The translations under genes and the position numbers were made by a program. DNA of 64,000 bases. Origin: a virus (taxonomy: Duplodnaviria; Caudoviricetes). The notes below the pieces were generated by a model. The model did not search any database and was not told the origin of the DNA. It saw only the letters and a program-made list of their open reading frames with translations. Shown one piece after another: positions 17,136-32,329 of this stretch. The DNA lies in IMG/VR virus record IMGVR_UViG_3300021255_002694; one strand, given 5' to 3'. The first letter of the stretch is position 1. Each line of letters starts with the position of its first letter.

Positions 17136-17639
17136 ATGTCTAAGATCATTAAATTCTATAACACTCTTCACTGGTTTGCATATGGCGAAAATAGTGAAGT
17201 CAACCTTGATTCAAGACAGTTTGAATTTTATGGTGATCTCTATGATGCACTTGAAGCTGACGATACAGACCTTGCTTCGTATGCAGACAGCTATCATGGT
17301 GATACATATTATGAAAAGCTGATCTCCACAAAAATCACATGTGAAAAAATCAACAATACTATTTTCGGCGTTGCTGAATGTGAAGTATCTGATGACTGGA
17401 CAGACGATGATACTGAACAGTTGAAAGAATACCTCTCCGGACAGTATAGTGATGGTTGGGGTGAGGGCTTTGAACAGCGCGAAATCGCATCCTATGAAGA
17501 AGAAGATGAATTTTGGGATGACGAAGATGAAGAATACTACTATGATACCACAACATATTATGTTTACGTGTCTTTCTGGCAGTGTATCGGTTTCAAAATC
17601 ATGACAGAAGATGAACTGAAAGAATATATTGGAAAGTGA
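17136..17639 (+). CDS. Acidic conserved mobile-element protein
   Basis: LSGQYSDGWGEGFEQREI motif. Confidence 0.65.
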   Translation: MSKIIKFYNTLHWFAYGENSEVNLDSRQFEFYGDLYDALEADDTDLASYADSYHGDTYYEKLISTKITCEKINNTIFGVAECEVSDDWTDDDTEQLKEYLSGQYSDGWGEGFEQREIASYEEEDEFWDDEDEEYYYDTTTYYVYVSFWQCIGFKIMTEDELKEYIGK

Positions 17640-17650
17640 GGTAATGTAAC

Positions 17651-19717
17651 ATGTTCGATCTTTATGAGAAGAAAGAAACAAAGTCTAAAGCAACTAATGG
17701 TAATTTGCATAAAGCAAAAGTAAATAAAAACGATGAATTCTATACACAGCTTACAGATATTGAAAAAGAACTTATGCACTATAAAGAACATTTCAAGGAT
17801 AAGATCGTATACTGTAACTGTGATGATCCGGAGTGGAGTAATTTCTGGAAGTATTTTCACCTTAATTTTGCACACCTCGGCTTGAAGAAATTGATCGCAA
17901 CATTTTATCATATCGGAGCATCCGTATATAAAATGGAATATACTGGTGGAGATGATAATAATATTTCTGCCGGAGTTAAGATTCCTCTTACTGGAAATGG
18001 TGATTTCAGATCGGAAGAATGTGTTGAAACTTTGAAAGAGTCTGATATTGTGGTTACTAATCCACCGTTTAGCTGTTACTCTAGCGATACTGAGGTCATG
18101 ACAAATAACGGCTGGAAACTGATTAAGGATGTTGACATCTCAACTGATTTAATTATGTCTCTGAATCCAGATACACATGAAATTGAATTTGTAAAAGCAG
18201 TTGACTTTATAACAAGCCCTGTAAATGGAGAACTTTATCACTATCAGTCAAGAAACATGGATTTCTGTGTTACTGGAAATCATAATATGTATGCTTATTA
18301 TAAAGATTGTCATGATGTTCCTAGAAGCATTCCTCTTGTAGAAGCTAGTTCCGTCAAGAAATCTTACATGCTTCCCATTACTGGCTTTTCATGGAGTGGT
18401 AACGATCAGGAATATTTTGTATTGCCAGAAACAAAGCAACTTGAACAATATACAAGAAAAGAAATCACTGTTCCGGAAAAGATGATCCCGATGGAAGATT
18501 GGCTTGAATTTTTCGGATTTTATCTTGCAGATGGATGTTATAGAGATCATATAAATTCACTCGGAAAAAGAGACTATACAATTTCAATTAAGCAAAATGT
18601 AAGCAATGAAGATTACGTGATTGATCTTATCCGGAGAATTGGATTTGATGCAAGAATCAGTGCAGGAAGTTCTGATTCCAATAAGAATTATAGTATCTAC
18701 TCAAAACAGCTTTGGGAATACTTGATGCAGTTTGGAAGAAGCCAGGATAAATATATTCCAAGAGAATTTCTCGATCTTGATGTAAAGTATCTCAAAGCAC
18801 TGTATAAAGGGTATACAAATGGCGATAGTTCTTTGTGTGCAGACGGTCATATTCACTTTTCAACTGTATCTGAAAAATTGATTTCAAACATTCAGGAACT
18901 TATCTTGAAAATTTTTGGACGCATTACACAAGTTAGAAAGTCTGTGCGTAAACACTCCTATGATGATAATTATGGAACATGTTACAGTATTAACGTAAAA
19001 CTAGATAAAAATAGAGATAACTTTAGTAAATATGTAACACCAAAAATGATTCCATATAATGACAATGTGTACTGTCTTACACTTGAAAAGAATCATATTA
19101 TGCTTGTTAGACATAATGGTATTATCGGGTGGTGTGGAAACTGTTTTAGAGATTATGTTGCACAGTTGATGAAGTATGAGAAGAAGTTTCTGATTATTGG
19201 AAATGTGAGTGCAATCACATATAAAGAGTTCTTCCCTTTAATTAAAAATGGAATGGTGTGGATTGGTCAATCAATTCACTCTGGAGATAGAAAATTTTAT
19301 GTTCCAGACTCGTATCCATTAAATGCATCTGGTTGTGGAATTGATGAAAATGGAAAAAGATACATACGAGTTAAGGGTGTTCGTTGGTACACTAATATGG
19401 ATTATGCTAAAAGGCACGAAAAACTTGTATTGTATAAAAAGTATGATTCGCAACATTACAGTAAATATGATAATTATGATGCAATCAACGTAGATAAGGT
19501 TATAGATATTCCTGTTGACTATGACGGAGTTATGGGTGTTCCTATCACTTTTTTGGATAAATACTGTCCTGAACAATTTGACATAGTGGATATAAACCCA
19601 CACTTTTTTAGCATTATTGAGCAGGGGCTACCTAAACCGAAGCAGCTAACTTTGCATAGTGTAGGAAAAAAAGATCCTTATGCCCGTATTCTTATACGCA
19701 AGAAAGTAGGTGCTTGA
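17651..19717 (+). CDS. EcoRI-family adenine-specific DNA methyltransferase containing an intein
   Basis: AK..KNDEFYT, YCNCDDP..SNF, GDFRS.EC, DIVVTNPPFS, GVMGVPITFLDKY.P.QF motifs. Confidence 0.92.
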   Translation: MFDLYEKKETKSKATNGNLHKAKVNKNDEFYTQLTDIEKELMHYKEHFKDKIVYCNCDDPEWSNFWKYFHLNFAHLGLKKLIATFYHIGASVYKMEYTGGDDNNISAGVKIPLTGNGDFRSEECVETLKESDIVVTNPPFSCYSSDTEVMTNNGWKLIKDVDISTDLIMSLNPDTHEIEFVKAVDFITSPVNGELYHYQSRNMDFCVTGNHNMYAYYKDCHDVPRSIPLVEASSVKKSYMLPITGFSWSGNDQEYFVLPETKQLEQYTRKEITVPEKMIPMEDWLEFFGFYLADGCYRDHINSLGKRDYTISIKQNVSNEDYVIDLIRRIGFDARISAGSSDSNKNYSIYSKQLWEYLMQFGRSQDKYIPREFLDLDVKYLKALYKGYTNGDSSLCADGHIHFSTVSEKLISNIQELILKIFGRITQVRKSVRKHSYDDNYGTCYSINVKLDKNRDNFSKYVTPKMIPYNDNVYCLTLEKNHIMLVRHNGIIGWCGNCFRDYVAQLMKYEKKFLIIGNVSAITYKEFFPLIKNGMVWIGQSIHSGDRKFYVPDSYPLNASGCGIDENGKRYIRVKGVRWYTNMDYAKRHEKLVLYKKYDSQHYSKYDNYDAINVDKVIDIPVDYDGVMGVPITFLDKYCPEQFDIVDINPHFFSIIEQGLPKPKQLTLHSVGKKDPYARILIRKKVGA
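18074..19141 (+). mobile_element. Intein (356 aa) with LAGLIDADG homing endonuclease
   Basis: Starts CYSSDTEV after NPPFS; block B VTGNH; FFGFYLADG and YTNGDS endonuclease motifs; VYCLT block F; ends WCGN followed by +1 Cys. Confidence 0.9.
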
Positions 19718-19756: not shown

Positions 19757-20893
19757 ATGAAAATCACAAAAACACAAGTAAAAGTATCTGATCTTGTAAA
19801 AGATTATCAAGATAAAGATGATCTTGGTGTTACAGGATTTGGTGGAAAACTGCAAATTAGACCTAATTACCAGCGAGAATTTGTATATTCTGATGCTAAA
19901 AGAAATGCTGTTATTGATACAGTAATTAAAGGATTTCCTCTTAATACAATGTACTGGAATGATCGTGGAGATGGTGAATATGAAGTTCTTGACGGTCAGC
20001 AACGTACAATTTCTATTTGCAGATATGTTTCCGGTGATTTCTCTATGAATATCGGCGGAGTCGCACAGTTCTTCCACAATCTTGATGATGAAATTAAGAA
20101 TAAGATTCTTAACTATGAACTTGAAGTATATATTTGTACCGGAACACAAGCCGAACGGCTTGAGTGGTTCAAAGTAATCAATATCGGCGGAGAGACATTG
20201 ACAGATCAAGAACTTCTTAATGCAACATATGCAGGTACATGGCTTAGTGATGCAAAACTGTATTTTTCTAAGCGTGGATGTTCTGCACAGAAAATGTCTG
20301 ATGGTTACTTAAAGGGAAATCCAATTAGACAGGAGATTCTTGAAAAAGCATTAAAGTGGATTTCTGATAGAGATGGATATAAGTCCATTGATATGTATAT
20401 GGCAAAACATCAGCATGATCCTGATGCAAATGATCTCTGGCAGTATTTTCAACAAGTAATCGCATGGGCAAAGATGATTTTCCCGAAAGCACGAAAAGGT
20501 ATTACAGACTGTCAGGAATGGGGAATTCTATACAATAAGTATCATTCTAATTCTTATAATACAAATACTATTGAAACAGATATTCAAAGACTTATTGCAG
20601 ATGATGATGTTACAAAGAAATCTGGAATCGTTCAATATCTTCTTTCTCCTAGAACAGAATTTGATGAAAAGTATCTTTCTATTCGCGCATTTACACAAAC
20701 ACAGAAACTTCGTGCTTATGAAGCGCAAAATCATAAATGCCCAATTTGTATGAGAAGCGGAATTGAGGTTGAATATACCATTGATGAAATGCAAGCAGAT
20801 CACATCATTCCGTGGTCTAAAGGTGGAAGAACTGTTGACGATAACTTGCAAATGCTTTGTAAGAAGTGTAATAGTGAAAAAAGTAATAAATAA
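19757..20893 (+). CDS. DUF262 plus HNH endonuclease (GmrSD-like restriction nuclease)
   Basis: IRPNYQREFVY and LDGQQRT (DUF262); CPIC...ADHIIPWSKGGRT..DNLQMLC..CN (HNH). Confidence 0.9.
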   Translation: MKITKTQVKVSDLVKDYQDKDDLGVTGFGGKLQIRPNYQREFVYSDAKRNAVIDTVIKGFPLNTMYWNDRGDGEYEVLDGQQRTISICRYVSGDFSMNIGGVAQFFHNLDDEIKNKILNYELEVYICTGTQAERLEWFKVINIGGETLTDQELLNATYAGTWLSDAKLYFSKRGCSAQKMSDGYLKGNPIRQEILEKALKWISDRDGYKSIDMYMAKHQHDPDANDLWQYFQQVIAWAKMIFPKARKGITDCQEWGILYNKYHSNSYNTNTIETDIQRLIADDDVTKKSGIVQYLLSPRTEFDEKYLSIRAFTQTQKLRAYEAQNHKCPICMRSGIEVEYTIDEMQADHIIPWSKGGRTVDDNLQMLCKKCNSEKSNK

Positions 20894-20915: not shown

Positions 20916-22466
20916 ATGACATATAATCTAATTGATGAACCTTGGATTAAGGTGAAATACCTTGACGGAACAACTACAGAAGTTGGAATTAGAAAATGTT
21001 TTGAAGATGCTGAAATCATTGATGATATTCTTGCTCCTAGTTTTCGCAGAGATACAATGCATATTTATTATATTCCAACACTAAGACTTCTAACAACTAT
21101 TGTTATGGCTGCGTATTTCAAGCCGGAACAGGACTTCACATCAAGAAATTTCAAGTATTTGCGTAAATTTGAAACCGGAATTTATACAGATGTTATTAAA
21201 GAATATCTTGATAAATTCCATGATCGGTTTGATGTTCTTTCTGTCGATTATCCTTTCTTGCAGAATAAAGACATTCTTGGAAAAGTTGAAGAAAACAAAA
21301 ACTGTGTTACATGGAACCCATTTATTCCGAGTGCGAATAACAAAGTTTTTGGTAAAAACAGATCACAAGATATGCAAGCAAATGATATTCTATCTCAATA
21401 TGAAATGACCGTAAAAGAATATGTATACTATCTTCTTTACACAGCAGTCATGGGTGTATATCCGTCAACGAAAGTTTCAAAGGAGACTGCACTTGAAGCA
21501 AAAGCAATGATTTATATTTCACTGAAAGGTAAAAATCTTTTGCAGACAATTTGTAATAATGTTTTCAAACTTAATAAAAGCAATGATTCAGACAATGATT
21601 ATGACAGACCTATTTGGGAACTTGAAAGAGTTGCAGATGTAGAAACATTGTTTCCTGTTAATTGTGATATACCTAGACAGAACAATAAGCTGATCTGTAG
21701 TTTCTATCCTGGCATCTCAATAATGAACACCGGAGCATCTGGATCAATGATTTCTGGATTTGTTAGAACAGGAACAGAAACGCTTGAAAACACAACAATC
21801 AATCAGGATGAGACAGCGGCTCTAGCTGATCCAAACGTATATTGTTGTGATTCTGCTGTATCAAAATCAGACAAAGACGGTAATAAGTCATATAAGGAAT
21901 TTAGTATTGATTCTGGTTTCGCAAGTTCAATCTGTATCGCGGCAACATCTCACATTGGAGATAACATGGCTTGCAATATCCTGAGTAATAACCGAGATTT
22001 TTCAGATTGTTCAGTAAGAATCTTTTTCAGAATGTTCGATGGCATGAAAGTTAGTCTTTTTCAATGTGGTGAAATTTCTGGAAATAATGCTAAGACATGG
22101 GAAATTTTACAGAATACTGATAAACATAACATAGCAGTTAAGTATAGCGAAACATATTATAAGATTAGAAAATGCTTAACAGGCTGTATTGCTGATATGT
22201 TCTCAGGAAAGAAAGTATCAGACAGTTTTATTAAAAAAGCTGTCAAGAATTTTTCTGATTTCATGGAACATGATTTCTTCAATGATTTCACAGTTGATCT
22301 TATAGAAGATGCAGAGAATGCTATTTATAAATTTGTTGAAAGATCGAGTGATGTTACGAAACAGATAGTCTCTGAAATTGTATGTTTCTCGGATAACATG
22401 ATCGGAAGTGCTAACGCTGTTTCAAAATTTAATAAGAACATGAAAAAATTGATTGAGGGGTGTTAA
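20916..22466 (+). CDS. cas8e: Type I-E Cascade large subunit Cas8e (Cse1/CasA)
   Basis: YNLIDEPWIKV, YL.+F.DRFD....PFLQ, G.NL.QT..N, PIWE motifs; operon position. Confidence 0.88.
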   Translation: MTYNLIDEPWIKVKYLDGTTTEVGIRKCFEDAEIIDDILAPSFRRDTMHIYYIPTLRLLTTIVMAAYFKPEQDFTSRNFKYLRKFETGIYTDVIKEYLDKFHDRFDVLSVDYPFLQNKDILGKVEENKNCVTWNPFIPSANNKVFGKNRSQDMQANDILSQYEMTVKEYVYYLLYTAVMGVYPSTKVSKETALEAKAMIYISLKGKNLLQTICNNVFKLNKSNDSDNDYDRPIWELERVADVETLFPVNCDIPRQNNKLICSFYPGISIMNTGASGSMISGFVRTGTETLENTTINQDETAALADPNVYCCDSAVSKSDKDGNKSYKEFSIDSGFASSICIAATSHIGDNMACNILSNNRDFSDCSVRIFFRMFDGMKVSLFQCGEISGNNAKTWEILQNTDKHNIAVKYSETYYKIRKCLTGCIADMFSGKKVSDSFIKKAVKNFSDFMEHDFFNDFTVDLIEDAENAIYKFVERSSDVTKQIVSEIVCFSDNMIGSANAVSKFNKNMKKLIEGC

Positions 22467-22467
22467 T

Positions 22468-22995
22468 ATGAGTACAAGTTCCGAGTTTGTTAAAAGTCTA
22501 TGGGCTAATCTATATGCTAAGTCTGGAAGCATCTATTGCTTGAAACGCGCATTTGGAAACTCTGTGAGCAGTTCCGATATCAACACATATATGTCTTTTT
22601 TAGATGTGTCAGGTAACACTTTTCCGGATAAACAGAAAGAGGTATACTTCCTTGTAGCAACAATGTTCTACAACTTTGAAAGACCTAATCAGGCAGAGAA
22701 AGATAACAGAACATTTGTGACATTCGAGAGACTTATTTCAAGAATCTACGGTAAGTCTAAATCTACAGACAAGATGATCCGGAATTTCATTGACAGTGAT
22801 TTTGACTCAAACGGTATTTTTGTCAATAGACTTGTAAGGCTGTCTAACAGATGTAAAAAAGAACTTCACAGCGGAGAGCATCTTGATTTCAACTCACTGA
22901 TCAATGATCTTGTTAGATGGAATGACGAATCCAAGTCTGTTAAGTTTAAGTGGGCATCTCAGATTGTGTCAAAATACACAAAAAATGACAAGTAA
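22468..22995 (+). CDS. cas11: Type I-E small subunit Cas11 (Cse2/CasB)
   Basis: LKRAFG, LDF..L..DL..W, V+.+W motifs; between cas8e and cas7. Confidence 0.8.
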   Translation: MSTSSEFVKSLWANLYAKSGSIYCLKRAFGNSVSSSDINTYMSFLDVSGNTFPDKQKEVYFLVATMFYNFERPNQAEKDNRTFVTFERLISRIYGKSKSTDKMIRNFIDSDFDSNGIFVNRLVRLSNRCKKELHSGEHLDFNSLINDLVRWNDESKSVKFKWASQIVSKYTKNDK

Positions 22996-23052
22996 CATTG
23001 TGACACTTTATATTCAAAAACACTTGACAGGATATAATATTTATAGTATACT
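22978..23052 (+). promoter_or_regulatory. Internal phage-type promoter with upstream site, in front of cas7
   Basis: ACAAA-N14-ATTGT (22978-23001); TTGACA(23024)-N17-TATACT(23047)ATATTTAC. Confidence 0.8.
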
Positions 23053-23103
23053 ATATTTACAGCAAAAGGCTGTAAACAGTAATTATTAAAAGGAGTAAAA
23101 ATT

Positions 23104-24321
23104 ATGGGAAAATTCGTAAGTCTGTCTATGTTGAAGAATTATTCTCCATCACTTGTGAACAGAGATGATTCCGGTGATGCAAAACAGGTTGTTGTTGGTG
23201 GAGTAAACCGTGCTAGAATTTCAAGCCAATGCTTGAAGAGGGCTGTGCGAGAGGAAATCGGAAACAGAGGTATTACAACCGCACATCTTGAAGACCTTGT
23301 TGAGCAGATTCTTTCCGATGAGTGTGTAAAAGGAACTATCTCTGAATCTGATATTGAAACTATTGGAAAAGCCGTTTGCTGTGAAGATGTACTCAACTGT
23401 GATTGGTCTAAGAGAGCATCAAAGACTGGTGAGAAGAAAGATGATGACGGAAAAGGCAGAACAGTCAATCAGGTTAATATGGTTGAGATCGGAACTGTAA
23501 TTAGGGTTGCAATCGAAAACAAGGACGCAAATCAGAAGGAACTTGTTAAAGCGATTAGAAATGCTCTTAATGATGTAAGAATTTCTGTAGATAAAGCAAT
23601 GTTTGGAACAATGGCAACATCCGGTTTGATTGAGACTGTTGATGGTGCTGTTCAGGTTGCACAGACATTCAGCATTGATGAGTACATCCCCGAAGATGAT
23701 TTTATCGTAGCAAAATTCTCTGCTGAAAATACAGATGACTTTGATCCGTTTTTCGGTAGTTACAAGAAATTTGAGAATGACAACATGAGAAAAACAGGAA
23801 GTGAAACACTTGCAAGTTCATGTCTGCACTCTAACACAATGCTTACATGCACATCCGTGAATGTTACAGAACTTAAAAGAAATCTATCTAGCAGTATTCA
23901 GCATACAGCGATTGATGTTGAAAATATTGATTCTGATGTTGCAAAAAGTGTATGTGACTATATCGAAACTGTAATCACAGCAGAACCGTCCGCAAAACAG
24001 AATGCCATGTCTGCACACTCTGTTCCGGCAGTTGTATATATTGAAGTTATTGAAGATGGTGCTGTTAAGTATCCGCAAGGTTCTTTTGAAAAGATCGTAA
24101 GGAGAACGGAATCCGATTCTGTATCTGAAATCGGAATTAAGCGAATTTCAGAATTTGCTGCCGATGATACTTTCAGAACAGGTAACATTAAGAAGTATGT
24201 CATGCTTTCTGCACCGTATAAGCGTCTTGAAGATATGTTTACAGATTCCGGAGTTACTGTAATTAAGAATCTAAGTAATCTTAGAGAAATTCTTGGTTCG
24301 GATATTCTTGGCATGATTTAA
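23104..24321 (+). CDS. cas7: Type I-E Cas7 (Cse4/CasC)
   Basis: PS.VNRDDSG..K....GG..RARISSQC.KRA.R, D.AMFG.M, VDGAVQVA, PSAKQN motifs. Confidence 0.93.
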   Translation: MGKFVSLSMLKNYSPSLVNRDDSGDAKQVVVGGVNRARISSQCLKRAVREEIGNRGITTAHLEDLVEQILSDECVKGTISESDIETIGKAVCCEDVLNCDWSKRASKTGEKKDDDGKGRTVNQVNMVEIGTVIRVAIENKDANQKELVKAIRNALNDVRISVDKAMFGTMATSGLIETVDGAVQVAQTFSIDEYIPEDDFIVAKFSAENTDDFDPFFGSYKKFENDNMRKTGSETLASSCLHSNTMLTCTSVNVTELKRNLSSSIQHTAIDVENIDSDVAKSVCDYIETVITAEPSAKQNAMSAHSVPAVVYIEVIEDGAVKYPQGSFEKIVRRTESDSVSEIGIKRISEFAADDTFRTGNIKKYVMLSAPYKRLEDMFTDSGVTVIKNLSNLREILGSDILGMI

Positions 24322-24392: not shown

Positions 24393-25148
24393 CTTTTTCC
24401 CACGCACATGGGGGTTATCCTATGCAGGTTTCCATGCACCTGATTTTCTTCCACTTTTTCCCACGCACATGGGGGTTATCCTCAAGCAAAAGGTCCTGAT
24501 TACTTTGAAGATATCTTTTTCCCACGCACATGGGGGTTATCCTGCCATCTTACTGGTTTCATAAAATCAAATCCTCTTTTTCCCACGCACATGGGGGTTA
24601 TCCCATCTTTCAATTCCTCCTCTGGAATTAGTTTGACTTTTTCCCACTCACACGGGGGTTATCTCAAAATCAAGATATTCCTGCTGCTGCAATTCGGATT
24701 TTTCCAACTCATACGGGTGGTTATCCTTTTCCAGTGATCGGATCAAAACCATCCTTTAACTTTTTCCTACTTTCGTGGAGTTATCCCTATTACAGGACTT
24801 GCACAATCAATACCTGAACCTTTTTCCACTCGCGTGGTGGTTATCCGCATTCGAGTCTTTCAGTCTGTGTTCCAGTACAGCTTTTCCCACCTGCATGGGG
24901 GTTATCCTTACTAGAAGAATTCCTTTCATAATATGTCTCATTTTCCCACTCGAATTGGGTTATCCAGATATTCCACAGGTATTGGTCCAAATCCAAGTCT
25001 TTTTCTCCACACACATGGGGTTATCCTTGATTTGTCAGAGTTCCTGGTGTACAAGCACACTTTTTCCCATGCAAGTTGGGGGTTATCCTACTCTGCTGTT
25101 TTGATAATTGCATCCGTTGTCCTTTTCCCGTGCAAACGGGGGTTATCC
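24393..25148 (+). CRISPR. CRISPR array 1, type I-E: 13 repeats, 12 spacers of 33 nt; consensus CTTTTTCCCACGCACATGGGGGTTATCC
   Basis: R1-R4 identical 28-mers at 61-nt period (24393, 24454, 24515, 24576); R5-R13 degenerate but keep the TTTT start and GTTATCC-like end. Confidence 0.97.
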
Positions 25149-25170
25149 TTAAAAGAGAGGGGTTTACTTT

Positions 25171-25692
25171 ATGAAATATATTAAGCTAATGTTTAAAGGT
25201 GTATTGCAGCATTACGCACCACCTAAATATGTTGTTATTGCACCATCAAGCACATATTATAGAACAGAGAGATGTCCAACAAAATCATCTATTGTAGGTC
25301 TTATTGGAGCATCTTCCGGATATGATAGAGATGATATTAGACTTATAGAATTAAAAAATAAAATTGACTGTAAGTATTCTATTATTAGAAATGGAACAGT
25401 TATTGTTGATTTTCAAACTGTAAGACCAATCGGTGATGAAAAATTCAGAAAAGTTGATGGTGGACTATCAACTGGTGCAATCATTAAGAAAGTTGAGTAT
25501 CTTCAAAATTATTCTTTTAATGTATATGTTGGTGCAGACGATGGAACTTTGAAACAGATTTACGATGCGCTTAGAAATCCTGTTTACCACCAATATTTTG
25601 GAAAAAGAAGTTGTGTTCCATCAGAACCTATTGTTACAGATTTTAATGTTGTTGATTTGGGGGTGCTTGAAAATGTATATGACTGTCCTTAA
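25171..25692 (+). CDS. cas5: Type I-E Cas5 (CasD), compact
   Basis: R.T..CPTKS.IVGLIGA..G..R, DFQTV, EYL...F, AL.NP....FG+RSC.PS.P. Confidence 0.9.
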   Translation: MKYIKLMFKGVLQHYAPPKYVVIAPSSTYYRTERCPTKSSIVGLIGASSGYDRDDIRLIELKNKIDCKYSIIRNGTVIVDFQTVRPIGDEKFRKVDGGLSTGAIIKKVEYLQNYSFNVYVGADDGTLKQIYDALRNPVYHQYFGKRSCVPSEPIVTDFNVVDLGVLENVYDCP

Positions 25693-26248
25693 AATTGATT
25701 TTGATTCACTTCAAACAAGATCATATCTTATGAAGATTGATGATGGTGATTTCATGCATAGATGGCTTACATCACAGATGGATTGTGAAAGAGTAGATCA
25801 GCATATTCTATACAGGGTTGACAAGTTTACAGACTCAATCTATATTTATATTCAATCTGACTCTGCATTCAATCTTAAAAATGTGCAGAAGTCTGGAATG
25901 AGTGTTGTTAAGCAGTTTGAAATTAACTGTGTCGGAGATAAAATCGCATTTGCTGTAAGATGTTTCCCGACTCACAGAGTAGGAGATAAAAGACTTTACA
26001 TCCTTAATACAGATGATCGCATGAACTATGTTAAAAGAATTTTATCGAGATATATTGATGTTGAGTCACTGACAGAAAATAGGTCTGCAATGTATTCAGT
26101 TAAAGGGAACGTAAAGTTGACATTTTGTGATTTCTCCGGTGTTGGAACTGTGAAGAACATGGGTAATTTTATGAATATTGTTAGGAATGGTATTGGAAAA
26201 TGCAAATGCTATGGCGCTGGAATGCTTCTTTTTAAGGGTGTGAATTGA
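25673..26248 (+). CDS. cas6e: Type I-E Cas6e (Cse3/CasE)
   Basis: MHR, ILYRVD, IQS motifs and C-terminal Gly-rich loop GIGKCKCYGAGML. Confidence 0.88.
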   Translation: MYMTVLKIDFDSLQTRSYLMKIDDGDFMHRWLTSQMDCERVDQHILYRVDKFTDSIYIYIQSDSAFNLKNVQKSGMSVVKQFEINCVGDKIAFAVRCFPTHRVGDKRLYILNTDDRMNYVKRILSRYIDVESLTENRSAMYSVKGNVKLTFCDFSGVGTVKNMGNFMNIVRNGIGKCKCYGAGMLLFKGVN

Positions 26249-28981
26249 GTGAAAAAATCTTGGTGTGTACTTGCATATGTGAATCCAACAAATGAAGTAA
26301 GAGGAAAAACAAGAAGATACCTCTATGAGGTCAAGCCAAATGTGTTTGTCGGTACTGTATCTACTTTAGTCAGAGAAACACTCTGGAATAAGATTAAAGA
26401 AACAAATACACTTGCTTCTATTATCTATTCAGCTAATACTGAACAGGGATTTAAGTCTGAAAGTACATACGGAGATGCAATGTTTTCGGATTTCGATGGA
26501 GTTATTCTTCCGACTTTTGAAAAAAGCATTCTGTCTGTAAAAGACATTTATGCAAAATCTGACGGCAAGAAACTGATTGATCATCTATTTGAAGCCGGAT
26601 ATATTGCACATGCACTTCTTACATATGGTAGAGGAAAGAATGCGATTCAACACATTGCAAAGTTGCTCAATGTAGATGTAGATAAACTAATTGATCTTAC
26701 TTGTTTTCTTATTGGAACGCATGATATCGGTAAAGCACATCCAACTTTTCAATTAAATCTAAATGATTCCAATACGTGCTGTGATGAAATTCATGACACA
26801 GTAATTAAACTCTTTCTCAGTGGATCATTCGATGTTACCGATAGCGGAGAAATGCGACATGAAAGATATTCAAGAGATATTTTATATGACTATTTTAATG
26901 ATCTTGGATTAGATGAATATTCATATGAATACCTTGCAGATATTATTGCATTTCACCATCAAGGCAAACTTGGAGATGCCGAAGAACTGACTGTATGTTA
27001 TGGATCAGAGACAGAAGATCGCTGGAAAGAGTGGAGAAATGTTCAGAGGCAGATGATTGAAAAAGTGCGATCAATCTGGAATATTGACACAGACTTCATC
27101 AAAAGCCTTGAGGATAAAAAATATACAAACGGTCTTTGTTACTTTATTCTTTCTGTAATGGTAACATCTGATTGGATTGTATCTGGAAAACATTTTGTGC
27201 AAACACTCAGTAATTGTAAAGGTGATATTGAAAAAGCCGCAAAAAGTTTTATCTGTACAAATCATTTAGATTGTTCTTCTATCAAGGATTCTTTGAAAAA
27301 TATATCTTGGGGTTCAGTATTTTCATTTGATAAGAATGCACTACAGACTTTTGTAACATCTGAAAAAGTTTCAGTAGATACTGATGAATGTCCGATGTAT
27401 GTTATCGAATATCCATGTGGCTATGGAAAGACCGAAGCCGCTCTTGCACTTGCGTTAAAAATCGGCGCAGATAAGAGTGGAATTTATCTCGCTGCACCTA
27501 CAATGTCTACAGCAAAAGGTCTTGCTAATAGATGCCGAGATATTGCAAAAAATGCCGGAATTGAAATGAACATTCCAGAGTTCGACAGCAGTATGATCTG
27601 GGAAGATAATGAGATGGAGAAAATTCCAAGAGAACTGTGGACGAGTAAGACAAGACATCAAATGCTTTATCCATTTGCTGTAGGAACTATTGACCAAGTT
27701 CTTAAATCTGTGATCAAGTATAGGTACTCATGTATCGGTATGCTCGGACTTTCAGATAAGGTCGTTATTATTGATGAAGTTCATGCCTATGATGCTTATA
27801 TGCTGACAGAACTTAAAACGCTGATTAGGTGGTGTAAGTTTCTAGGAGTTCCGATTATTCTTCTGTCTGCAACACTTCCAACTGAAACAAAACAGCAGTT
27901 GTTCTCTGCATCTGGAATAGCGACAGACATTAAAGAGTACAGCAATGAGTATCCACTTATCACATATGCATATAATGGAAAACTTATTCAGGAGCATATT
28001 GATTGTGTTGGAAAAGATGTGAACATTAAAACAGTTGAATCGAATGATATCATTGTGTCAATGCTGAATTCAGCAATGTCTGTTGAATCTGGATGTATTG
28101 CACTTATTGCACCGACAGTTGATGATGCTTTTGCACTGTATGATATGTTGAATGAAGAAGTGACTGATTGTGATGTTATTCTGTATCATGGAAGAATGTC
28201 AGTTTCGGATAAATCTGATAAGGTAAAAGAATTACTAAGACTTTTTGGAAAAGATAGATCAAATAGACCGAAGAAAGCCATTGTTGTTGCGACATCTATC
28301 ATCGAACAATCTCTTGATGTTGATTTTGACTATATGTTCACTGCGCTTGCTCCTATTGATCTTCTTATTCAAAGACTCGGCAGAGTTCACAGACATTCGG
28401 ATAAGGGAACTATTAGAGAGTTTACAAAAATCGACAGTCCTTTTACAGTAGTTATTCCAAGATCATATGATAATCTTGCAAGAATTTATGATTCGGAAAT
28501 TCTAAATAGAACTAAAACAGAACTATCTAAGATTAAAAAATTGAATACCGTTGATGACGTTCGGAGTATTATTGACAGTGCATATAATGGCTATTCTCCA
28601 CAGAGAGATAATATTTCTAGGATCAGAGCAAATTCTGTAACTTTGAATGATCCTGTAAAAAGAGATGCCATTGAAACATCTCCTGAAAATTATAGATCAT
28701 TCGATCCGGTTCTTCCAATAACAAGAGAAGAAAGATATCCTACAACTGATGTAATCATCATTCGTGAAATCAAAGATGAATATAGTTTTGCAGAAATTCG
28801 TGATATCATGTTGAATAACTGTATTAGCGTTGCTTCATACAAACTTAATCCGTTCCATGAACTTGCAATTACGGATTTTGAATTTTTTAGAGATGCAGAA
28901 ATATATGTCAGCGATAGCATGTTCATCACTTCCGGAGAGCATATTATGACACTTACAGGAGATGGGTTGAGGATTGAATGA
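26249..28981 (+). CDS. cas3: Cas2-Cas3 fusion: I-E-type Cas2 (about aa 1-90), HD nuclease, SF2 helicase
   Basis: N-terminal RG...RYLYEV.PNVFVG.VS..VRE.LW...NTEQGF...DFDG.IL (I-E Cas2); DHL, HDIGK, RHE, HHQG, SDW (HD); PCGYGKT, DEVH, SAT, QRLGRVHR (helicase). Confidence 0.93.
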   Translation: MKKSWCVLAYVNPTNEVRGKTRRYLYEVKPNVFVGTVSTLVRETLWNKIKETNTLASIIYSANTEQGFKSESTYGDAMFSDFDGVILPTFEKSILSVKDIYAKSDGKKLIDHLFEAGYIAHALLTYGRGKNAIQHIAKLLNVDVDKLIDLTCFLIGTHDIGKAHPTFQLNLNDSNTCCDEIHDTVIKLFLSGSFDVTDSGEMRHERYSRDILYDYFNDLGLDEYSYEYLADIIAFHHQGKLGDAEELTVCYGSETEDRWKEWRNVQRQMIEKVRSIWNIDTDFIKSLEDKKYTNGLCYFILSVMVTSDWIVSGKHFVQTLSNCKGDIEKAAKSFICTNHLDCSSIKDSLKNISWGSVFSFDKNALQTFVTSEKVSVDTDECPMYVIEYPCGYGKTEAALALALKIGADKSGIYLAAPTMSTAKGLANRCRDIAKNAGIEMNIPEFDSSMIWEDNEMEKIPRELWTSKTRHQMLYPFAVGTIDQVLKSVIKYRYSCIGMLGLSDKVVIIDEVHAYDAYMLTELKTLIRWCKFLGVPIILLSATLPTETKQQLFSASGIATDIKEYSNEYPLITYAYNGKLIQEHIDCVGKDVNIKTVESNDIIVSMLNSAMSVESGCIALIAPTVDDAFALYDMLNEEVTDCDVILYHGRMSVSDKSDKVKELLRLFGKDRSNRPKKAIVVATSIIEQSLDVDFDYMFTALAPIDLLIQRLGRVHRHSDKGTIREFTKIDSPFTVVIPRSYDNLARIYDSEILNRTKTELSKIKKLNTVDDVRSIIDSAYNGYSPQRDNISRIRANSVTLNDPVKRDAIETSPENYRSFDPVLPITREERYPTTDVIIIREIKDEYSFAEIRDIMLNNCISVASYKLNPFHELAITDFEFFRDAEIYVSDSMFITSGEHIMTLTGDGLRIE

Positions 28982-28983
28982 TG

Positions 28984-29940
28984 CTTTTCCTCACTTCACG
29001 GGGGTTATCCTACTGCCGCAACCTTGACTACAAGTTCAATGCACTTTTCCACACTGCATGTGGGTTATCCTATTAAGTTGCAAGTCAAGGAATTGAATTA
29101 CGTCTTTTTCCAACACACGGTGGTTATCCACCATGAGAACGATCCTGCGATACAGCGGTTGACTTTTCAAACGCACACGATGTGGGGGGGGGTATCCAAA
29201 ATCATGCACTGATCGAGTCAAACGGACATACCTTTTCCAACGCACACATGGGGGTTATCCTGGCTACCCTGTAAAATTACACTACTTTCAAATCTTTTCC
29301 CCATACATAGGGGGTTATCCTCTGCCAGTCGTGTCGTTTTCATACTCGTTTCAGTCTTTTCCATACATATTGGGGTTATCCAAAGTATTTATTGCTGTTG
29401 ACAAAAGAGCAAATCTTTTTCCACTTATATGGTGGTTATCCTGCCGAAGCTGGCAATGCACTAGGAAAAGGTCACTTTTCCCATTACACTGGGGTTATCC
29501 GTTGTCATTGTGATCTCTTGACCAAATCTATACTTTCCCATACACACATGGGTTATCCTGACATTACAGATAAGACAATGATTACTGCAATCTTTTTCTC
29601 ACACATACGAGTGGGGGTTATCCTGAAAGAATGGATATAAATGGGCAGAACGACAGTCCCACCCCCCCCAATACACATTGGGGGAGGGGGCTTATCCATT
29701 GTTTACTGATAGCGCAGTTTGAACTAATGACTTTTCACGTATACATGTGGGAGTTATCCTTCATTACAAAGTTCGTATGAGTTTGACTTAAACTTTTCCA
29801 CACACATAGGGGTGGTTATCCTCGATATTCGGTTTAGATATCAACCGATCAAGCATTTTCCCCATATACACGGGGGTTATCCGGAGATTGCCGATATTTA
29901 CATTGAAGCAACAAACTTTTCCCAATCACACAGGGGTTAT
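28984..29940 (+). CRISPR. CRISPR array 2: 16 repeats, all different, with 15 spacers of about 33 nt
   Basis: About 60-nt periodic CTTTTC...GGTTATCC units starting 2 nt after the cas3 stop; repeat lengths about 25-41 nt. Confidence 0.93.
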
Positions 29941-29976
29941 AATTATTACAATTTGGTTACAGATGTAAATAGACCA

Positions 29977-30283: not shown

Positions 30284-32329
30284 ATGAAAATATCGTTGAA
30301 CAATTTGCTTTTATCAGAACTCCGTGCATTTCCTGTAACCATGATTCCAGATAATGACGTTACAGATTCAACTCTAACAGCCGCGATTACTGCAAATGAA
30401 GAATTACTTAATCTAGGCTATACTTTATCAGCAGAAGATGTTGTTAATCTTGCAAAGTGTGGTGAACTGTATTCATTTGTAGAGATGTTCAAAGATGCTC
30501 TCTCGGATGTAAAAGCAAAACCAATGTATCCAAATTTCCCGAATCAAGTTATGGATATGGATGAAGCAACATTCAGATTTCATCAGATGATGCATTATTT
30601 TTCAACATATGGTGCAGAACTGTTTTTCGGTCTAAATGTATCTAAAGGATGGCTACCGAATGTAGAAGATACTCCTAAGATCAATGATGATAATACTTTG
30701 CTAAAAGCAAAGGTAATTACTCTTATTGATTCATATGACATTCCAGAATACGTTTATTCAAGAATTATGTCTAAATGCGAGAGATTGACAGATAAGGATC
30801 AGATGCTCCTTGACTATGTTCTTCCGAACATTGATGCAAGCACTATAAAGAGTGTTCAAATTCCGTTTAAGGAAAATATCATGCCTGTATTTTACAGTAT
30901 TGTCAATTCAACTGCAATTTCGCAAGAAGATAAACTTTGTTTTCTTAACTGTATTTGCAAGCATACCGGAGATGTTTTCAAGTGCATTGATTACACTCTT
31001 ACAAGATGCAAGTATCATTTCAAGACTTCTCAAAAAAGACTTTTCACAAAGTTGCTTGAAACATACAGTAACAGTGACTTTGAGGAAAATATAATTATCT
31101 CAGACAAGCGATCAAACAGAACAGAACTCTTGCTTAGATATATTGACTTTAACACATATTCACGTATTCCTGTATTCAAAACTATTGTCAATGAACTTCG
31201 ATCTGGTGAACTGCACTCTTGGATGTCTAAGGTCGAAGCAAAGTTGAAAACAAGAGATGTTGATGCTCTTAAGATGCTATCGAAAAGACCTGGCATCATG
31301 CTTAGAATGTTGACAAGACTTTTAAGACTCGGTTACAATCCTACAGATATTCTTGTATATCTGTATCCACATGCACCAGAACTTAGAACGCAGACACTTG
31401 TATCTATTCTAAACGCATTCAATGCTAAATTGGATGATCTTGAAAATAGTGATCAAAGTGAACTTAGTAGAGCAACAAGATCAGAGGTACAAAATGTGAT
31501 TACAATTTGTGCTGGATTACTTAGAGATAATCTTCACTCCAAAGATTCTCCGTTCAAAGGCAAAAGAGTTTATATTGATCACGGAGAGTACAATTTTGCA
31601 CGATCTATCATTGAAACAAACGGCAAATCTGATGAGGGCGGATATGTAAGATCAGGACTTTCATATAATATTCCAGATAATGTCAGTAGACTTAGATTCT
31701 TTGTTTACTGGAATCACAAGTATCGTGCAGATGTTGATTTGCACTCAAGACTTGTAGACTTCTGTGGCTGCACACAGGATATTGGATGGAATGCTAGTTT
31801 TAAAGAACCTGTTGCTGTATTTAGTGGAGACATTACACATTCAGATGCCGCAGAATATATTGACATTGATCTCGATGCAGCTAGAAATAACAATATCGAG
31901 TATGCAACAACATCAATTAAACTATATTCATCTGAGGATATAACAAACGGTCTTGGTGATCTTGATGAGTGTTATGTTGGATGCATGGCTGTTTCATCGC
32001 TTAATGAACATGTAAAACTGTATAATCCTAAAAATTGTTTCTTCTCACATAGTCTAATAACTAAGTCTAAGATACTTGGATACGGCTTTATCGACATTAA
32101 GAATAGATGCATTACAGTTTCAGCAAAGCCCAGTGTTGATGTATACCAATCTTCCATGCACATTCAGAAAAATCTATTCTCACTTAATACATATGTTAAT
32201 ATTCTTCTTTCATCACAAGATTGCGATATTGTAACAAGTAGAGAAGATGCTGATTTTGTTATTGTACTTGATAAGCCTATGAATGATATTGAGATCAGCT
32301 TGATTGACAATAATTTCTTTATGGATTGA
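30284..32329 (+). CDS. ROT/TROVE-like repeat plus C-terminal TerD-like protein (MXAN_6230/SCO0854-related, no RING seen)
   Basis: PMYPNFP.QV, IPFKEN, L..RPG..LR.L.RLLR, RFFVYW, DVDLHS, FSGDIT...AAEYIDIDL motifs. Confidence 0.7.
   Translation: MKISLNNLLLSELRAFPVTMIPDNDVTDSTLTAAITANEELLNLGYTLSAEDVVNLAKCGELYSFVEMFKDALSDVKAKPMYPNFPNQVMDMDEATFRFHQMMHYFSTYGAELFFGLNVSKGWLPNVEDTPKINDDNTLLKAKVITLIDSYDIPEYVYSRIMSKCERLTDKDQMLLDYVLPNIDASTIKSVQIPFKENIMPVFYSIVNSTAISQEDKLCFLNCICKHTGDVFKCIDYTLTRCKYHFKTSQKRLFTKLLETYSNSDFEENIIISDKRSNRTELLLRYIDFNTYSRIPVFKTIVNELRSGELHSWMSKVEAKLKTRDVDALKMLSKRPGIMLRMLTRLLRLGYNPTDILVYLYPHAPELRTQTLVSILNAFNAKLDDLENSDQSELSRATRSEVQNVITICAGLLRDNLHSKDSPFKGKRVYIDHGEYNFARSIIETNGKSDEGGYVRSGLSYNIPDNVSRLRFFVYWNHKYRADVDLHSRLVDFCGCTQDIGWNASFKEPVAVFSGDITHSDAAEYIDIDLDAARNNNIEYATTSIKLYSSEDITNGLGDLDECYVGCMAVSSLNEHVKLYNPKNCFFSHSLITKSKILGYGFIDIKNRCITVSAKPSVDVYQSSMHIQKNLFSLNTYVNILLSSQDCDIVTSREDADFVIVLDKPMNDIEISLIDNNFFMD

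What the first reader, a model, noticed from the sequence alone, without database searches (positions are those of the whole stretch)
24847..24879. Array 1 spacer 8 matches a synonymous-variant homolog of the element's own DUF262-HNH gene
Seen: the reverse complement of spacer 8 reads TGT ACT GGA ACA CAG ACT GAA AGA CTC GAA TGC (CTGTQTERLEC); the gene at 20135-20167 reads TGT ACC GGA ACA CAA GCC GAA CGG CTT GAG TGG (CTGTQAERLEW). That is 24/33 nt but 9/11 aa, with mismatches mostly synonymous. The site is flanked on the spacer strand by 5'-AA, the PAM known for the Streptococcus thermophilus I-E system, whose repeat is similar. The nucleotide identity alone could be chance; the codon pattern is the evidence. 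Inference: the system targets a related phage or element carrying the same R-M module, or the resident gene was recoded to escape self-targeting.
Basis: partly seen in the sequence, partly recalled or inferred. Interest (0 to 1): 0.76.

Follow-up and report, generated by a model that had tools for sequence, protein, structure and literature searches.

The report
Phage CRISPR spacer aimed at sibling phages
A CRISPR spacer carried by a large rumen/gut phage was copied from a sibling phage's version of a nuclease gene that this phage also has; its own copy differs enough to be spared, which is a known way for viruses to shut out close relatives.

Summary
The reverse complement of spacer 8 (24847-24879) matches the resident DUF262-HNH gene at 20135-20167 in frame, at 24/33 nt and 9/11 aa, with 7 of 9 mismatches at third codon positions.

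The nucleotide match alone is near chance. The peptide match beats all 160 shuffles.

What settles it is the relatives. Every sibling allele of this gene recovered from rumen and gut metagenome contigs, about 25 loci, matches the spacer at 29-30/33. All carry the same 5'-AA flank.

No exact protospacer was found. Every spacer-specific base except position 1 occurs in some natural allele. Position 1 is the unpaired N of the St-Cascade AAN PAM.

Read as a 32-nt guide under type I-E rules, most siblings show one effective non-seed mismatch. The resident allele shows six, one of them in the seed.

Three other window spacers behave the same way. Two hit the cas5 gene of a rival cassette variant (31/33 and 27/33). 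One hits the 681-aa gene next to array 2. A sibling's newest spacer matches a CRISPR-less sibling's nrdD at 32/32.

This is interviral CRISPR targeting: a new member of a known kind (Medvedeva 2019; Wei 2026). This scan has already found the pattern several times on other DNA. "Recoding to escape" cannot be separated from simple retention of compatible spacers.

The parts
24847..24879 (+). Array 1 spacer 8. Position 24847 is the PAM-derived N (G here). The 32-nt guide is 24848-24879.
   Evidence: Array parsed. The N/32-nt reading follows the St-Cascade rule and the position-1 mismatches.
24820..24846 (+). Degenerate repeat upstream of spacer 8. It supplies the crRNA 5' handle TTATCC.
   Evidence: the hairpin is kept (-4.7 kcal/mol) and ends 6 nt before the repeat end.
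24880..24907 (+). Degenerate repeat downstream of spacer 8. It supplies the 3' hairpin where Cas6e would cut.
   Evidence: the hairpin is kept (-6.5 kcal/mol).
20135..20169 (-). Resident cognate site of spacer 8 (20135-20167) plus the AA flank (20168-20169 on the - strand). It matches at 24/33, or 24/32 within the guide.
   Evidence: mismatches at guide positions 3, 6, 9, 11, 15, 17, 18 and 27.
19757..20893 (+). DUF262 (GmrSD_N)-HNH nuclease gene. It is conserved next to an EcoRI-family methyltransferase in all siblings.
   Evidence: Pfam. Homologues. Gene contexts.
24393..25149 (+). CRISPR array 1: 13 repeats and 12 spacers. The first four repeats are identical and the rest are degenerate. 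It lies between cas7 and cas5.
28983..29943 (+). CRISPR array 2: 16 degenerate repeats and 15 spacers. It starts 2 nt after the cas2-cas3 stop codon.
   Evidence: Seven spacers are shared with sibling L005, each with 0-3 changes.
20916..24321 (+). cse1/cas8e (20916-22466), cse2 (22453-22995) and cas7 (23104-24321).
   Evidence: Pfam.
25171..28981 (+). cas5 (25171-25692), cas6e (ORF from 25565, ending at 26248) and the cas2-cas3 fusion (26249-28981).
   Evidence: Pfam.
24604..24636 (+). Array 1 spacer 4. It matches the cas5 gene of the rival cassette variant: L018/L019 31/33 and L005 27/33, with flank GAA. The phage's own cas5 site (25643-25675) matches at 16/33.
25089..25121 (+). Array 1 spacer 12. 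It matches cas5 of L018 (27/33) and L005 (26/33), with flank AAA. The phage's own site (25467-25499) matches at 23/33.
29559..29591 (+). Array 2 spacer 10. It matches the 681-aa gene of L007/L008 (28/33) and L005 (27/33), with flank TAA. The phage's own site (30355-30387) matches at 21/33 and carries a one-codon indel.

Best explanation
The window comes from a roughly 325-kb probable jumbo phage found in rumen and gut metagenomes. It carries its own type I-E-like CRISPR-Cas cassette (cse1, cse2, cas7, array 1, cas5, cas6e, cas2-cas3, array 2) and has no cas1.

Spacer 8 of array 1 was taken from a sibling phage's allele of the DUF262-HNH gene, which sits just upstream of the cassette in the whole phage group.

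The proposed mechanism runs as follows. The crRNA is read from the + strand. It has a 7-nt handle ending in a variable N and a 32-nt guide. It directs Cascade to the AAN-flanked site on the antisense strand of that gene in co-infecting siblings. Cas2-Cas3 then degrades the rival genome, which amounts to heterotypic superinfection exclusion.

The carrier's own allele keeps the PAM but has 8 mismatches in the guide. Six of these count under type I-E rules, one of them in the seed, so the carrier is spared.

What is shown: the origin of the spacer in a sibling allele, the AA flank, the self versus sibling contrast in mismatches, and the same pattern for other spacers. What is inferred: expression and processing of crRNA 8, current interference activity, and the every-sixth-base rule, which is carried over from E. 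coli Cascade.
For: (1) Sibling alleles. L004, L023, L017 and L026-L029 match at 30/33. L005, L006, L009-L016, L018-L022, L024 and L025 match at 29/33. All have a GAA or AAA flank. The resident allele matches at 24/33.

(2) As a 32-nt guide with PAM AAC, most siblings have a single effective mismatch, at position 15 or 27. The resident allele has six, including seed position 3. The St-Cascade rule (AAN PAM, 32-bp R-loop) is taken from PMC10281945.

(3) Each spacer-specific base occurs in a natural allele: CAG in L004, ACT in L005, CTC in L017, and CAG with ACT together in L026.

(4) Other spacers show the same pattern. A1-4 hits cas5 of L018 at 31/33. A1-12 hits cas5 at 27/33. A2-10 hits the 681-aa gene at 28/33. 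L005's leader-proximal spacer B2-1 hits nrdD of the CRISPR-less sibling L007 at 32/33, differing only at the N position. All have AA flanks. The background AA frequency is 0.11, so p is about 1.6e-5 for 5 of 5.

(5) Resident sites are locally hyperdivergent. The A1-8 site is the most diverged 33-nt window of the gene against L005: 5 differences against a mean of 1.1, with 2% of windows as high. The A2-10 site against L007 has 11 differences against a mean of 2.5, with 1.4% of windows as high.

(6) The cas genes are intact. All 29 repeats keep a hairpin ending 6 nt before the handle.

(7) Siblings lacking the cassette but carrying the target gene exist: L007-L015 and L023-L029.
Against: No exact protospacer was found in any collection searched.

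Spacer 8 lies in the degenerate, older part of the array, and the window has no cas1, so the spacer may be old.

Expression, crRNA processing and interference were not tested. The mismatch-tolerance rules are borrowed from E. coli and S. thermophilus Cascade.

Only about 10 kb either side of the gene is held for each sibling, so the share of the 27 spacers that hit siblings is unknown.

Phage identity rests on PHROG hits (NrdD, Thg1-like, clamp-loader-like), contig sizes and IMG/VR homologues. No capsid or terminase gene was seen in this window.
Confidence: 0.75

Rival explanations
1. Relic. The spacer did come from a sibling's DUF262-HNH allele, but it is now an inherited, drifting fossil in a decaying array. 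It no longer gives effective interference and has no present function.
For: The repeats around it are degenerate. The window has no cas1. The sibling L018 carries only a 158-aa cas1 remnant. No exact target was found. Spacers shared between the window and L005 differ by 0-3 nt, so spacers drift at roughly the rate of the flanking DNA.
Against: Every repeat keeps its hairpin and handle despite sequence change. The cas genes are intact. Most sibling alleles have only one effective non-seed mismatch. Resident sites are locally hyperdivergent exactly at spacer-matched places, which suggests that self-targeting is still a live constraint or was until recently.
Confidence: 0.15
2. Self-derived spacer with escape recoding. 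The spacer was taken from the carrier's own ancestral gene, and the resident gene then accumulated mostly synonymous changes to escape self-cleavage.
For: The resident allele (GCC GAA CGG) is the derived state compared with all other alleles, including the more distant P0122 group. Its four changes are clustered within 9 nt, in the most diverged window of the gene.
Against: The identical allele occurs in the CRISPR-less siblings L007 and L008 and in contigs from other runs. The derived changes are at guide positions 9, 11, 15 and 17, whereas single-step escapes normally hit the PAM or seed (established type I-E knowledge). The PAM is retained. A small recombination patch, or simple retention of spacers that happen to be compatible with this allele, explains the data equally well.
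Confidence: 0.06
3. Chance similarity between the spacer and the resident gene.
For: A 24/33 match is reached by 0.9% of shuffled spacers. A second, apparently spurious 24/33 hit exists (A1-4 against 17593-17625).
Against: The peptide score exceeds all shuffles. Matches of 29-30/33 occur at the homologous site of every sibling, with a conserved PAM.
Confidence: 0.01
4. Self-regulation. Partial complementarity lets Cascade bind the resident DUF262-HNH gene, or its mRNA, without cleavage and so tune its expression.
For: The PAM is retained at the resident site. The guide is antisense to the mRNA. The nuclease gene lies directly upstream of cse1.
Against: There are eight mismatches, including one in the seed and a mid-guide cluster. 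The same pattern for cas5 and the 681-aa gene fits targeting of rivals better.
Confidence: 0.03

Closest known systems
Virus-borne CRISPR arrays in interviral conflict (portogloboviruses SPV1/SPV2; Medvedeva et al. 2019, PMC6858448)
   Same: The spacers on a virus match closely related viruses. The orthologous loci in the carrier have point mutations or deletions that prevent self-targeting. The targets lie close to the array. All three features are seen here.
   Different: Those arrays hold 1-2 spacers, have no cas genes, and rely on the archaeal host's type I machinery. Here a bacterial jumbo phage brings a full Cascade and a Cas2-Cas3 fusion, with two arrays and 27 spacers. Some of its spacers hit the cas5 gene of a rival version of the same cassette.
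CRISPR-Cas systems of huge/jumbo phages that target other phages (Wei et al. 2026, PMC13037316, and the Al-Shayeb et al. 2020 work it cites)
   Same: These are jumbo phages whose CRISPR-Cas systems mostly lack cas1, cas2 and cas4. In that study 57% of 9,304 phage spacers matched other jumbo phages, often reciprocally.
   Different: That survey counted only matches with at most 1 mismatch. The present spacer, with 2-3 mismatches, would have been missed. The comparison between the resident allele and sibling alleles is worked out here for this one locus.
Streptococcus thermophilus DGCC7710 type I-E (CRISPR4, St-Cascade)
   Same: The PAM is AAN and the R-loop is 32 bp (PMC10281945). The Cascade gene set is the same by Pfam. 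The repeat has the same layout: T-rich start, GC hairpin and a short 3' handle.
   Different: This system is borne by a phage. cas3 is fused to cas2 and sits last. There is no cas1. One array sits inside the operon. The repeats are highly degenerate. The resemblance of the repeat sequence to CRISPR4 rests on my memory and was not tested.
Anti-cas spacers in orphan E. coli I-F arrays (Almendros et al. 2016; recalled from memory, not checked here)
   Same: The spacers are directed at cas genes of a related CRISPR-Cas system.
   Different: In that case the arrays are chromosomal orphan arrays blocking uptake of a system. Here two spacers on a phage hit the cas5 allele of sibling phages' cassettes.

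Membership tests
Type I-E CRISPR-Cas | Cascade genes cse1/cas8e, cse2/cas11, cas7, cas5e and cas6e | tested here: met
   Pfam hits CRISPR_Cse1, CRISPR_Cse2, Cas_CT1975, Cas_Cas5d and CRISPR_assoc, all above their cut-offs.
Type I-E CRISPR-Cas | Cas3 HD nuclease-helicase | tested here: met
   Cas3_HD, DEAD and Cas3-like_C_2 domains in the 910-aa protein, which also has an N-terminal I-E Cas2 domain.
Type I-E CRISPR-Cas | Adaptation module: cas1 plus a stand-alone cas2 | tested here: not met
   No cas1 in the window: tblastn with the L018 Cas1 fragment gives a best E-value of 0.6. cas2 is fused to cas3.
Type I-E CRISPR-Cas | Repeat of 28-29 nt with a hairpin and a 7-8-nt 3' handle, spacers of 32-33 nt, and a 5' PAM on the strand that matches the spacer | tested here: met
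   for repeats and spacers. The AA(N) flank is present at all five mapped protospacers.
Virus-borne CRISPR used in interviral conflict | The array lies on a virus genome | tested here: inconclusive
   PHROG hits to NrdD, Thg1-like and clamp-loader-like proteins. Sibling contigs are 160-326 kb with many small ORFs on one strand. Homologues occur on IMG/VR contigs. No capsid or terminase gene was examined.
Virus-borne CRISPR used in interviral conflict | Spacers match closely related viruses next to a functional PAM | tested here: met
   A1-8 at 29-30/33, A1-4 at 31/33, A1-12 at 27/33 and A2-10 at 28/33. L005's spacer B2-1 matches at 32/32. All have AA flanks.
Virus-borne CRISPR used in interviral conflict | The carrier's orthologous site is mutated so that it is not targeted | tested here: met
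   Resident sites match at 24/33, 16/33, 23/33 and 21/33, the last with a codon indel. The sites are locally hyperdivergent.
Virus-borne CRISPR used in interviral conflict | Reciprocal targeting between siblings | tested here: inconclusive
   L005's spacer B2-1 matches the window's nrdD at 30/33, with one mismatch in the seed. L005's B1-6 matches the window's cas6e at 26/33. L018's spacers gave no hits. Only partial sibling genomes are held.
Virus-borne CRISPR used in interviral conflict | Interference against the sibling shown in cells | not testable with these tools
   This needs an experiment.

The most novel reading that the evidence does not exclude
Sibling jumbo phages in the rumen may be fighting a CRISPR-against-CRISPR arms race. 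In it the cassettes target each other's cas5 and the genes flanking the cassette, and this drives allele replacement. The window's Cas5 is only 62% identical in amino acids to the sibling type it targets, while other Cas proteins are 75-96% identical and the flanking nuclease is 93-99%. If true, this would be CRISPR-driven diversification or speciation of phage lineages, with the guide register placing half of the wobble positions on bases that Cascade does not read.
Probability: 0.3. Interest if true: 0.6.

Novelty: new member of a known kind. Interest (0 to 1): 0.36.

Why it matters
This is a clean, well-sampled natural example of a phage turning a complete type I-E CRISPR-Cas system against its own close relatives. 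The target allele, the spared resident allele and the PAM are all visible in one gene family across about 25 metagenomic loci.

It also supports AAN as the PAM of this uncultivated system. It shows that stringent spacer matching (at most 1 mismatch) will miss older interviral spacers.

It does not reveal a new principle. The phenomenon is published, and this scan has met it repeatedly.

Tried and rejected
- **Exact 32-mer of spacer 8 in IMG/VR:** no hits.
- **blastn of the spacer against GenBank phages:** only 17-22-nt chance hits in Vibrio and Proteus phages, E about 4.
- **Megablast of both arrays against GenBank phages:** no match.
- **Codon-degenerate protospacer pattern:** 2 loci in JGI metagenome contigs, at 29/33 and 30/33. 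None in GTDB genomes or IMG/VR.
- **Repeat pattern in GTDB genomes and IMG/VR,** looking for a host or a donor array: none.
- **Whole genome of the window:** not held.
- **Record behind L017:** not held.
- **Contigs of four public runs laid on the gene:** the probable source sample shows only the resident allele. Two other runs also show the resident allele. One run shows a Ser variant that is further from the spacer. No exact protospacer appeared; since contigs drop rare variants, this says nothing about absence.
- **The 24/33 hit of spacer A1-4 at 17593-17625:** judged to be chance (mismatches not codon-patterned, peptide score within the null range), because the true relative of A1-4 is the sibling cas5.
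- **Peptide-level scan of all 27 spacers against the window:** only A1-8 stands out.
- **L018 array-1 spacers against everything held:** no hits.

Full report
**1. Observation**

Array 1 (24393-25149) has 13 repeats and 12 spacers. Array 2 (28983-29943) has 16 repeats and 15 spacers.

The + strand is the crRNA sense. The leader-side repeats of array 1 are identical and the distal ones are degenerate. Every repeat folds into a hairpin that ends 6 nt before the repeat end.

Spacer 8 is at 24847-24879. Its reverse complement aligns without gaps to 20135-20167 at 24/33 nt. The alignment is in frame 0 of ORF 19757-20893 and gives CTGTQTERLEC against CTGTQAERLEW.

Pfam identifies that ORF as GmrSD_N (DUF262) plus HNH. 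It follows an EcoRI-family methyltransferase and lies directly upstream of cse1.

**2. Is it more than chance?**

On nucleotides alone it is not. A match of at least 24/33 somewhere in the window is reached by 0.9% of shuffled spacers, so about 0.25 are expected over 27 spacers. A second 24/33 hit (spacer A1-4 at 17593-17625) looks spurious.

The codon pattern is significant. Seven of nine mismatches fall at third codon positions (binomial p about 0.008, my arithmetic). The peptide-level score of 47 exceeds the maxima of all 160 shuffled spacers, the largest being 42.

**3. Relatives decide it**

The protein has thousands of homologues. One 90%-identity cluster (P0001, 74 members) carries CTGTQTERLEW at this position.

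I fetched DNA for about 25 loci of that cluster from ENA, Logan and JGI rumen, bovine and gut metagenome contigs. Some of these contigs reach 326 kb.

At the homologous site every sibling matches the spacer at 29-30/33, always with a GAA or AAA flank on the spacer strand.

No allele is identical to the spacer. However, each spacer-specific base is seen in nature: CAG in L004, ACT in L005, CTC in L017, and CAG with ACT together in L026. The exception is position 1, which is G in the spacer and C in all targets.

**4. PAM and guide register**

St-Cascade uses an AAN PAM and a 32-bp R-loop (PMC10281945).

Position 1 of the 33-nt unit varies from repeat to repeat here. It is also the only mismatch between sibling L005's newest spacer and its otherwise perfect target. 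So it is best read as the N of the PAM.

With the guide taken as 24848-24879, all targets have PAM AAC. Siblings match at 29-30/32.

Cascade does not read every sixth base. This is established for E. coli Cascade and is only inferred here. Leaving those bases out, most siblings have one effective mismatch, at position 15 or 27. L005 has a single mismatch at seed position 3. The resident allele has six effective mismatches, including seed position 3.

Because the protospacer is antisense to the gene, wobble positions fall on multiples of 3 in the guide. Half of them are therefore bases that Cascade ignores.

**5. The same pattern in other spacers**

- A1-4 matches the cas5 gene of the L018/L019 cassette at 31/33 and of L005 at 27/33. 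The window's own cas5 site matches at 16/33.
- A1-12 matches the same cas5 type at 26-27/33, against 23/33 for the window's own site.
- A2-10 matches the 681-aa gene downstream of array 2 in L007/L008 at 28/33. The window's own site matches at 21/33 and has a one-codon indel.
- L005's leader-proximal spacer B2-1 matches nrdD of the CRISPR-less sibling L007 at 32/32 with PAM AAC. It matches the window's nrdD at 30/33.

All five protospacers carry AA. The background frequency of AA is 0.11, so p is about 1.6e-5.

The window's cas5 is an outlier. It is 70% identical in nucleotides and 62% in amino acids to the L005 and L018 cas5 genes, which are 90% identical to each other. The other cas genes are 78-92% identical in nucleotides.

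**6. Self-avoidance**

Against its closest sibling L005 (3.4% divergence across the gene), the spacer 8 site is the most diverged 33-nt window of the gene. It has 5 differences against a mean of 1.1, and 2% of windows are as high.

The A2-10 site against L007 shows 11 differences against a mean of 2.5, with 1.4% of windows as high.

This is what Medvedeva et al. reported for SPV1 and SPV2: carriers have point mutations or deletions at the orthologous loci, and targets lie near the array (PMC6858448).

It fits either escape recoding or simple survival of only those spacers that are compatible with the resident allele. I favour the second reading, for three reasons. The resident allele is also present in the CRISPR-less siblings L007 and L008 and in other runs. 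The PAM is retained. The derived changes lie mid-guide rather than in the PAM or seed.

**7. Context**

Siblings fall into three groups:

- With the cassette: the window, L005 and L018/L019.
- Without the cassette but with the same neighbouring genes: L007/L008.
- With other genes in that slot: L009-L015 and L023-L029.

So suitable targets without the weapon exist in the same habitats.

The window has no cas1. L018 has a 158-aa cas1 remnant after cas2-cas3.

Spacers shared between the window and L005 differ by 0-3 nt. The 2-3 mismatches between spacer 8 and the nearest alleles are therefore within ordinary drift for an old spacer.

**8. Comparison and novelty**

The behaviour matches published interviral CRISPR targeting (PMC6858448). 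It also matches the jumbo-phage phage-against-phage networks reported in PMC13037316. This scan has already reported the same kind of thing several times on other DNA.

It is therefore a new member of a known kind. The anti-cas5 spacers paired with a strongly diverged resident cas5 are the most interesting extra detail.

**9. Limits**

- No exact protospacer was found.
- There are no expression or interference data.
- The mismatch rules are transferred from model systems.
- Only about 10 kb on each side of the gene is held for each sibling.
- Phage identity is probable, not proven, from this window.

Noticed in passing
window 25171-25692 (cas5); L005:15078-15599; L018:16653-17174: The window's cas5 is only 70% nt and 62% aa identical to the cas5 of siblings L005 and L018, which are 90% identical to each other. 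The other cas genes are 78-92% nt identical. Two window spacers (A1-4 and A1-12) match the sibling-type cas5. This looks like anti-cas targeting combined with allele replacement.
   Followed up: partly
L005:18907-18939 (spacer B2-1); L007:19804-19836; window 36202-36234: Sibling L005 has one extra spacer at the cas3-proximal end of array 2. It matches nrdD of the CRISPR-less sibling L007 at 32/32 with PAM AAC, and the window's nrdD at 30/33. New spacers therefore seem to enter array 2 directly after the cas2-cas3 stop codon, even though no intact cas1 is seen.
   Followed up: partly
L018:20461-20937: In the L018/L019 cassette a 158-aa ORF with a weak Cas1 Pfam hit overlaps the end of cas2-cas3. 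It looks like a truncated cas1 remnant. The window has array 2 at that position instead.
   Followed up: partly
window 24393-25149 and 28983-29943: Nearly every repeat differs in sequence and length (25-41 nt), yet all 29 fold into a hairpin ending exactly 6 nt before the TTATCC handle. One repeat (29657-29697) has an extended G/C-rich stem of -21.6 kcal/mol.
   Followed up: partly
window 17651-19717; L005:8772-9848; L007:7148-9190: The EcoRI-family methyltransferase is 688 aa here, with a weak LAGLIDADG hit in its middle. It is 680-699 aa in L007 and L023 but only 349-368 aa in L005, L009, L018 and L026. The insertion, which looks like an intein, is therefore present in some siblings and absent in others.
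   Followed up: no
L007:9192-9986: The CRISPR-less siblings L007 and L008 carry an extra 260-264-aa gene (faint DUF4145 hit) between the methyltransferase and the DUF262-HNH gene. The 681-aa gene follows the nuclease directly, at the place where the window has the whole cas cassette. This marks the insertion slot of the cassette.
   Followed up: no
window 20135-20167 versus guide register: Because the protospacer is antisense and in this register, all wobble positions of the target codons fall on guide positions that are multiples of 3. Half of them are sixth positions, which type I-E Cascade does not read. The guide therefore tolerates much of the synonymous variation among siblings.
   Followed up: partly
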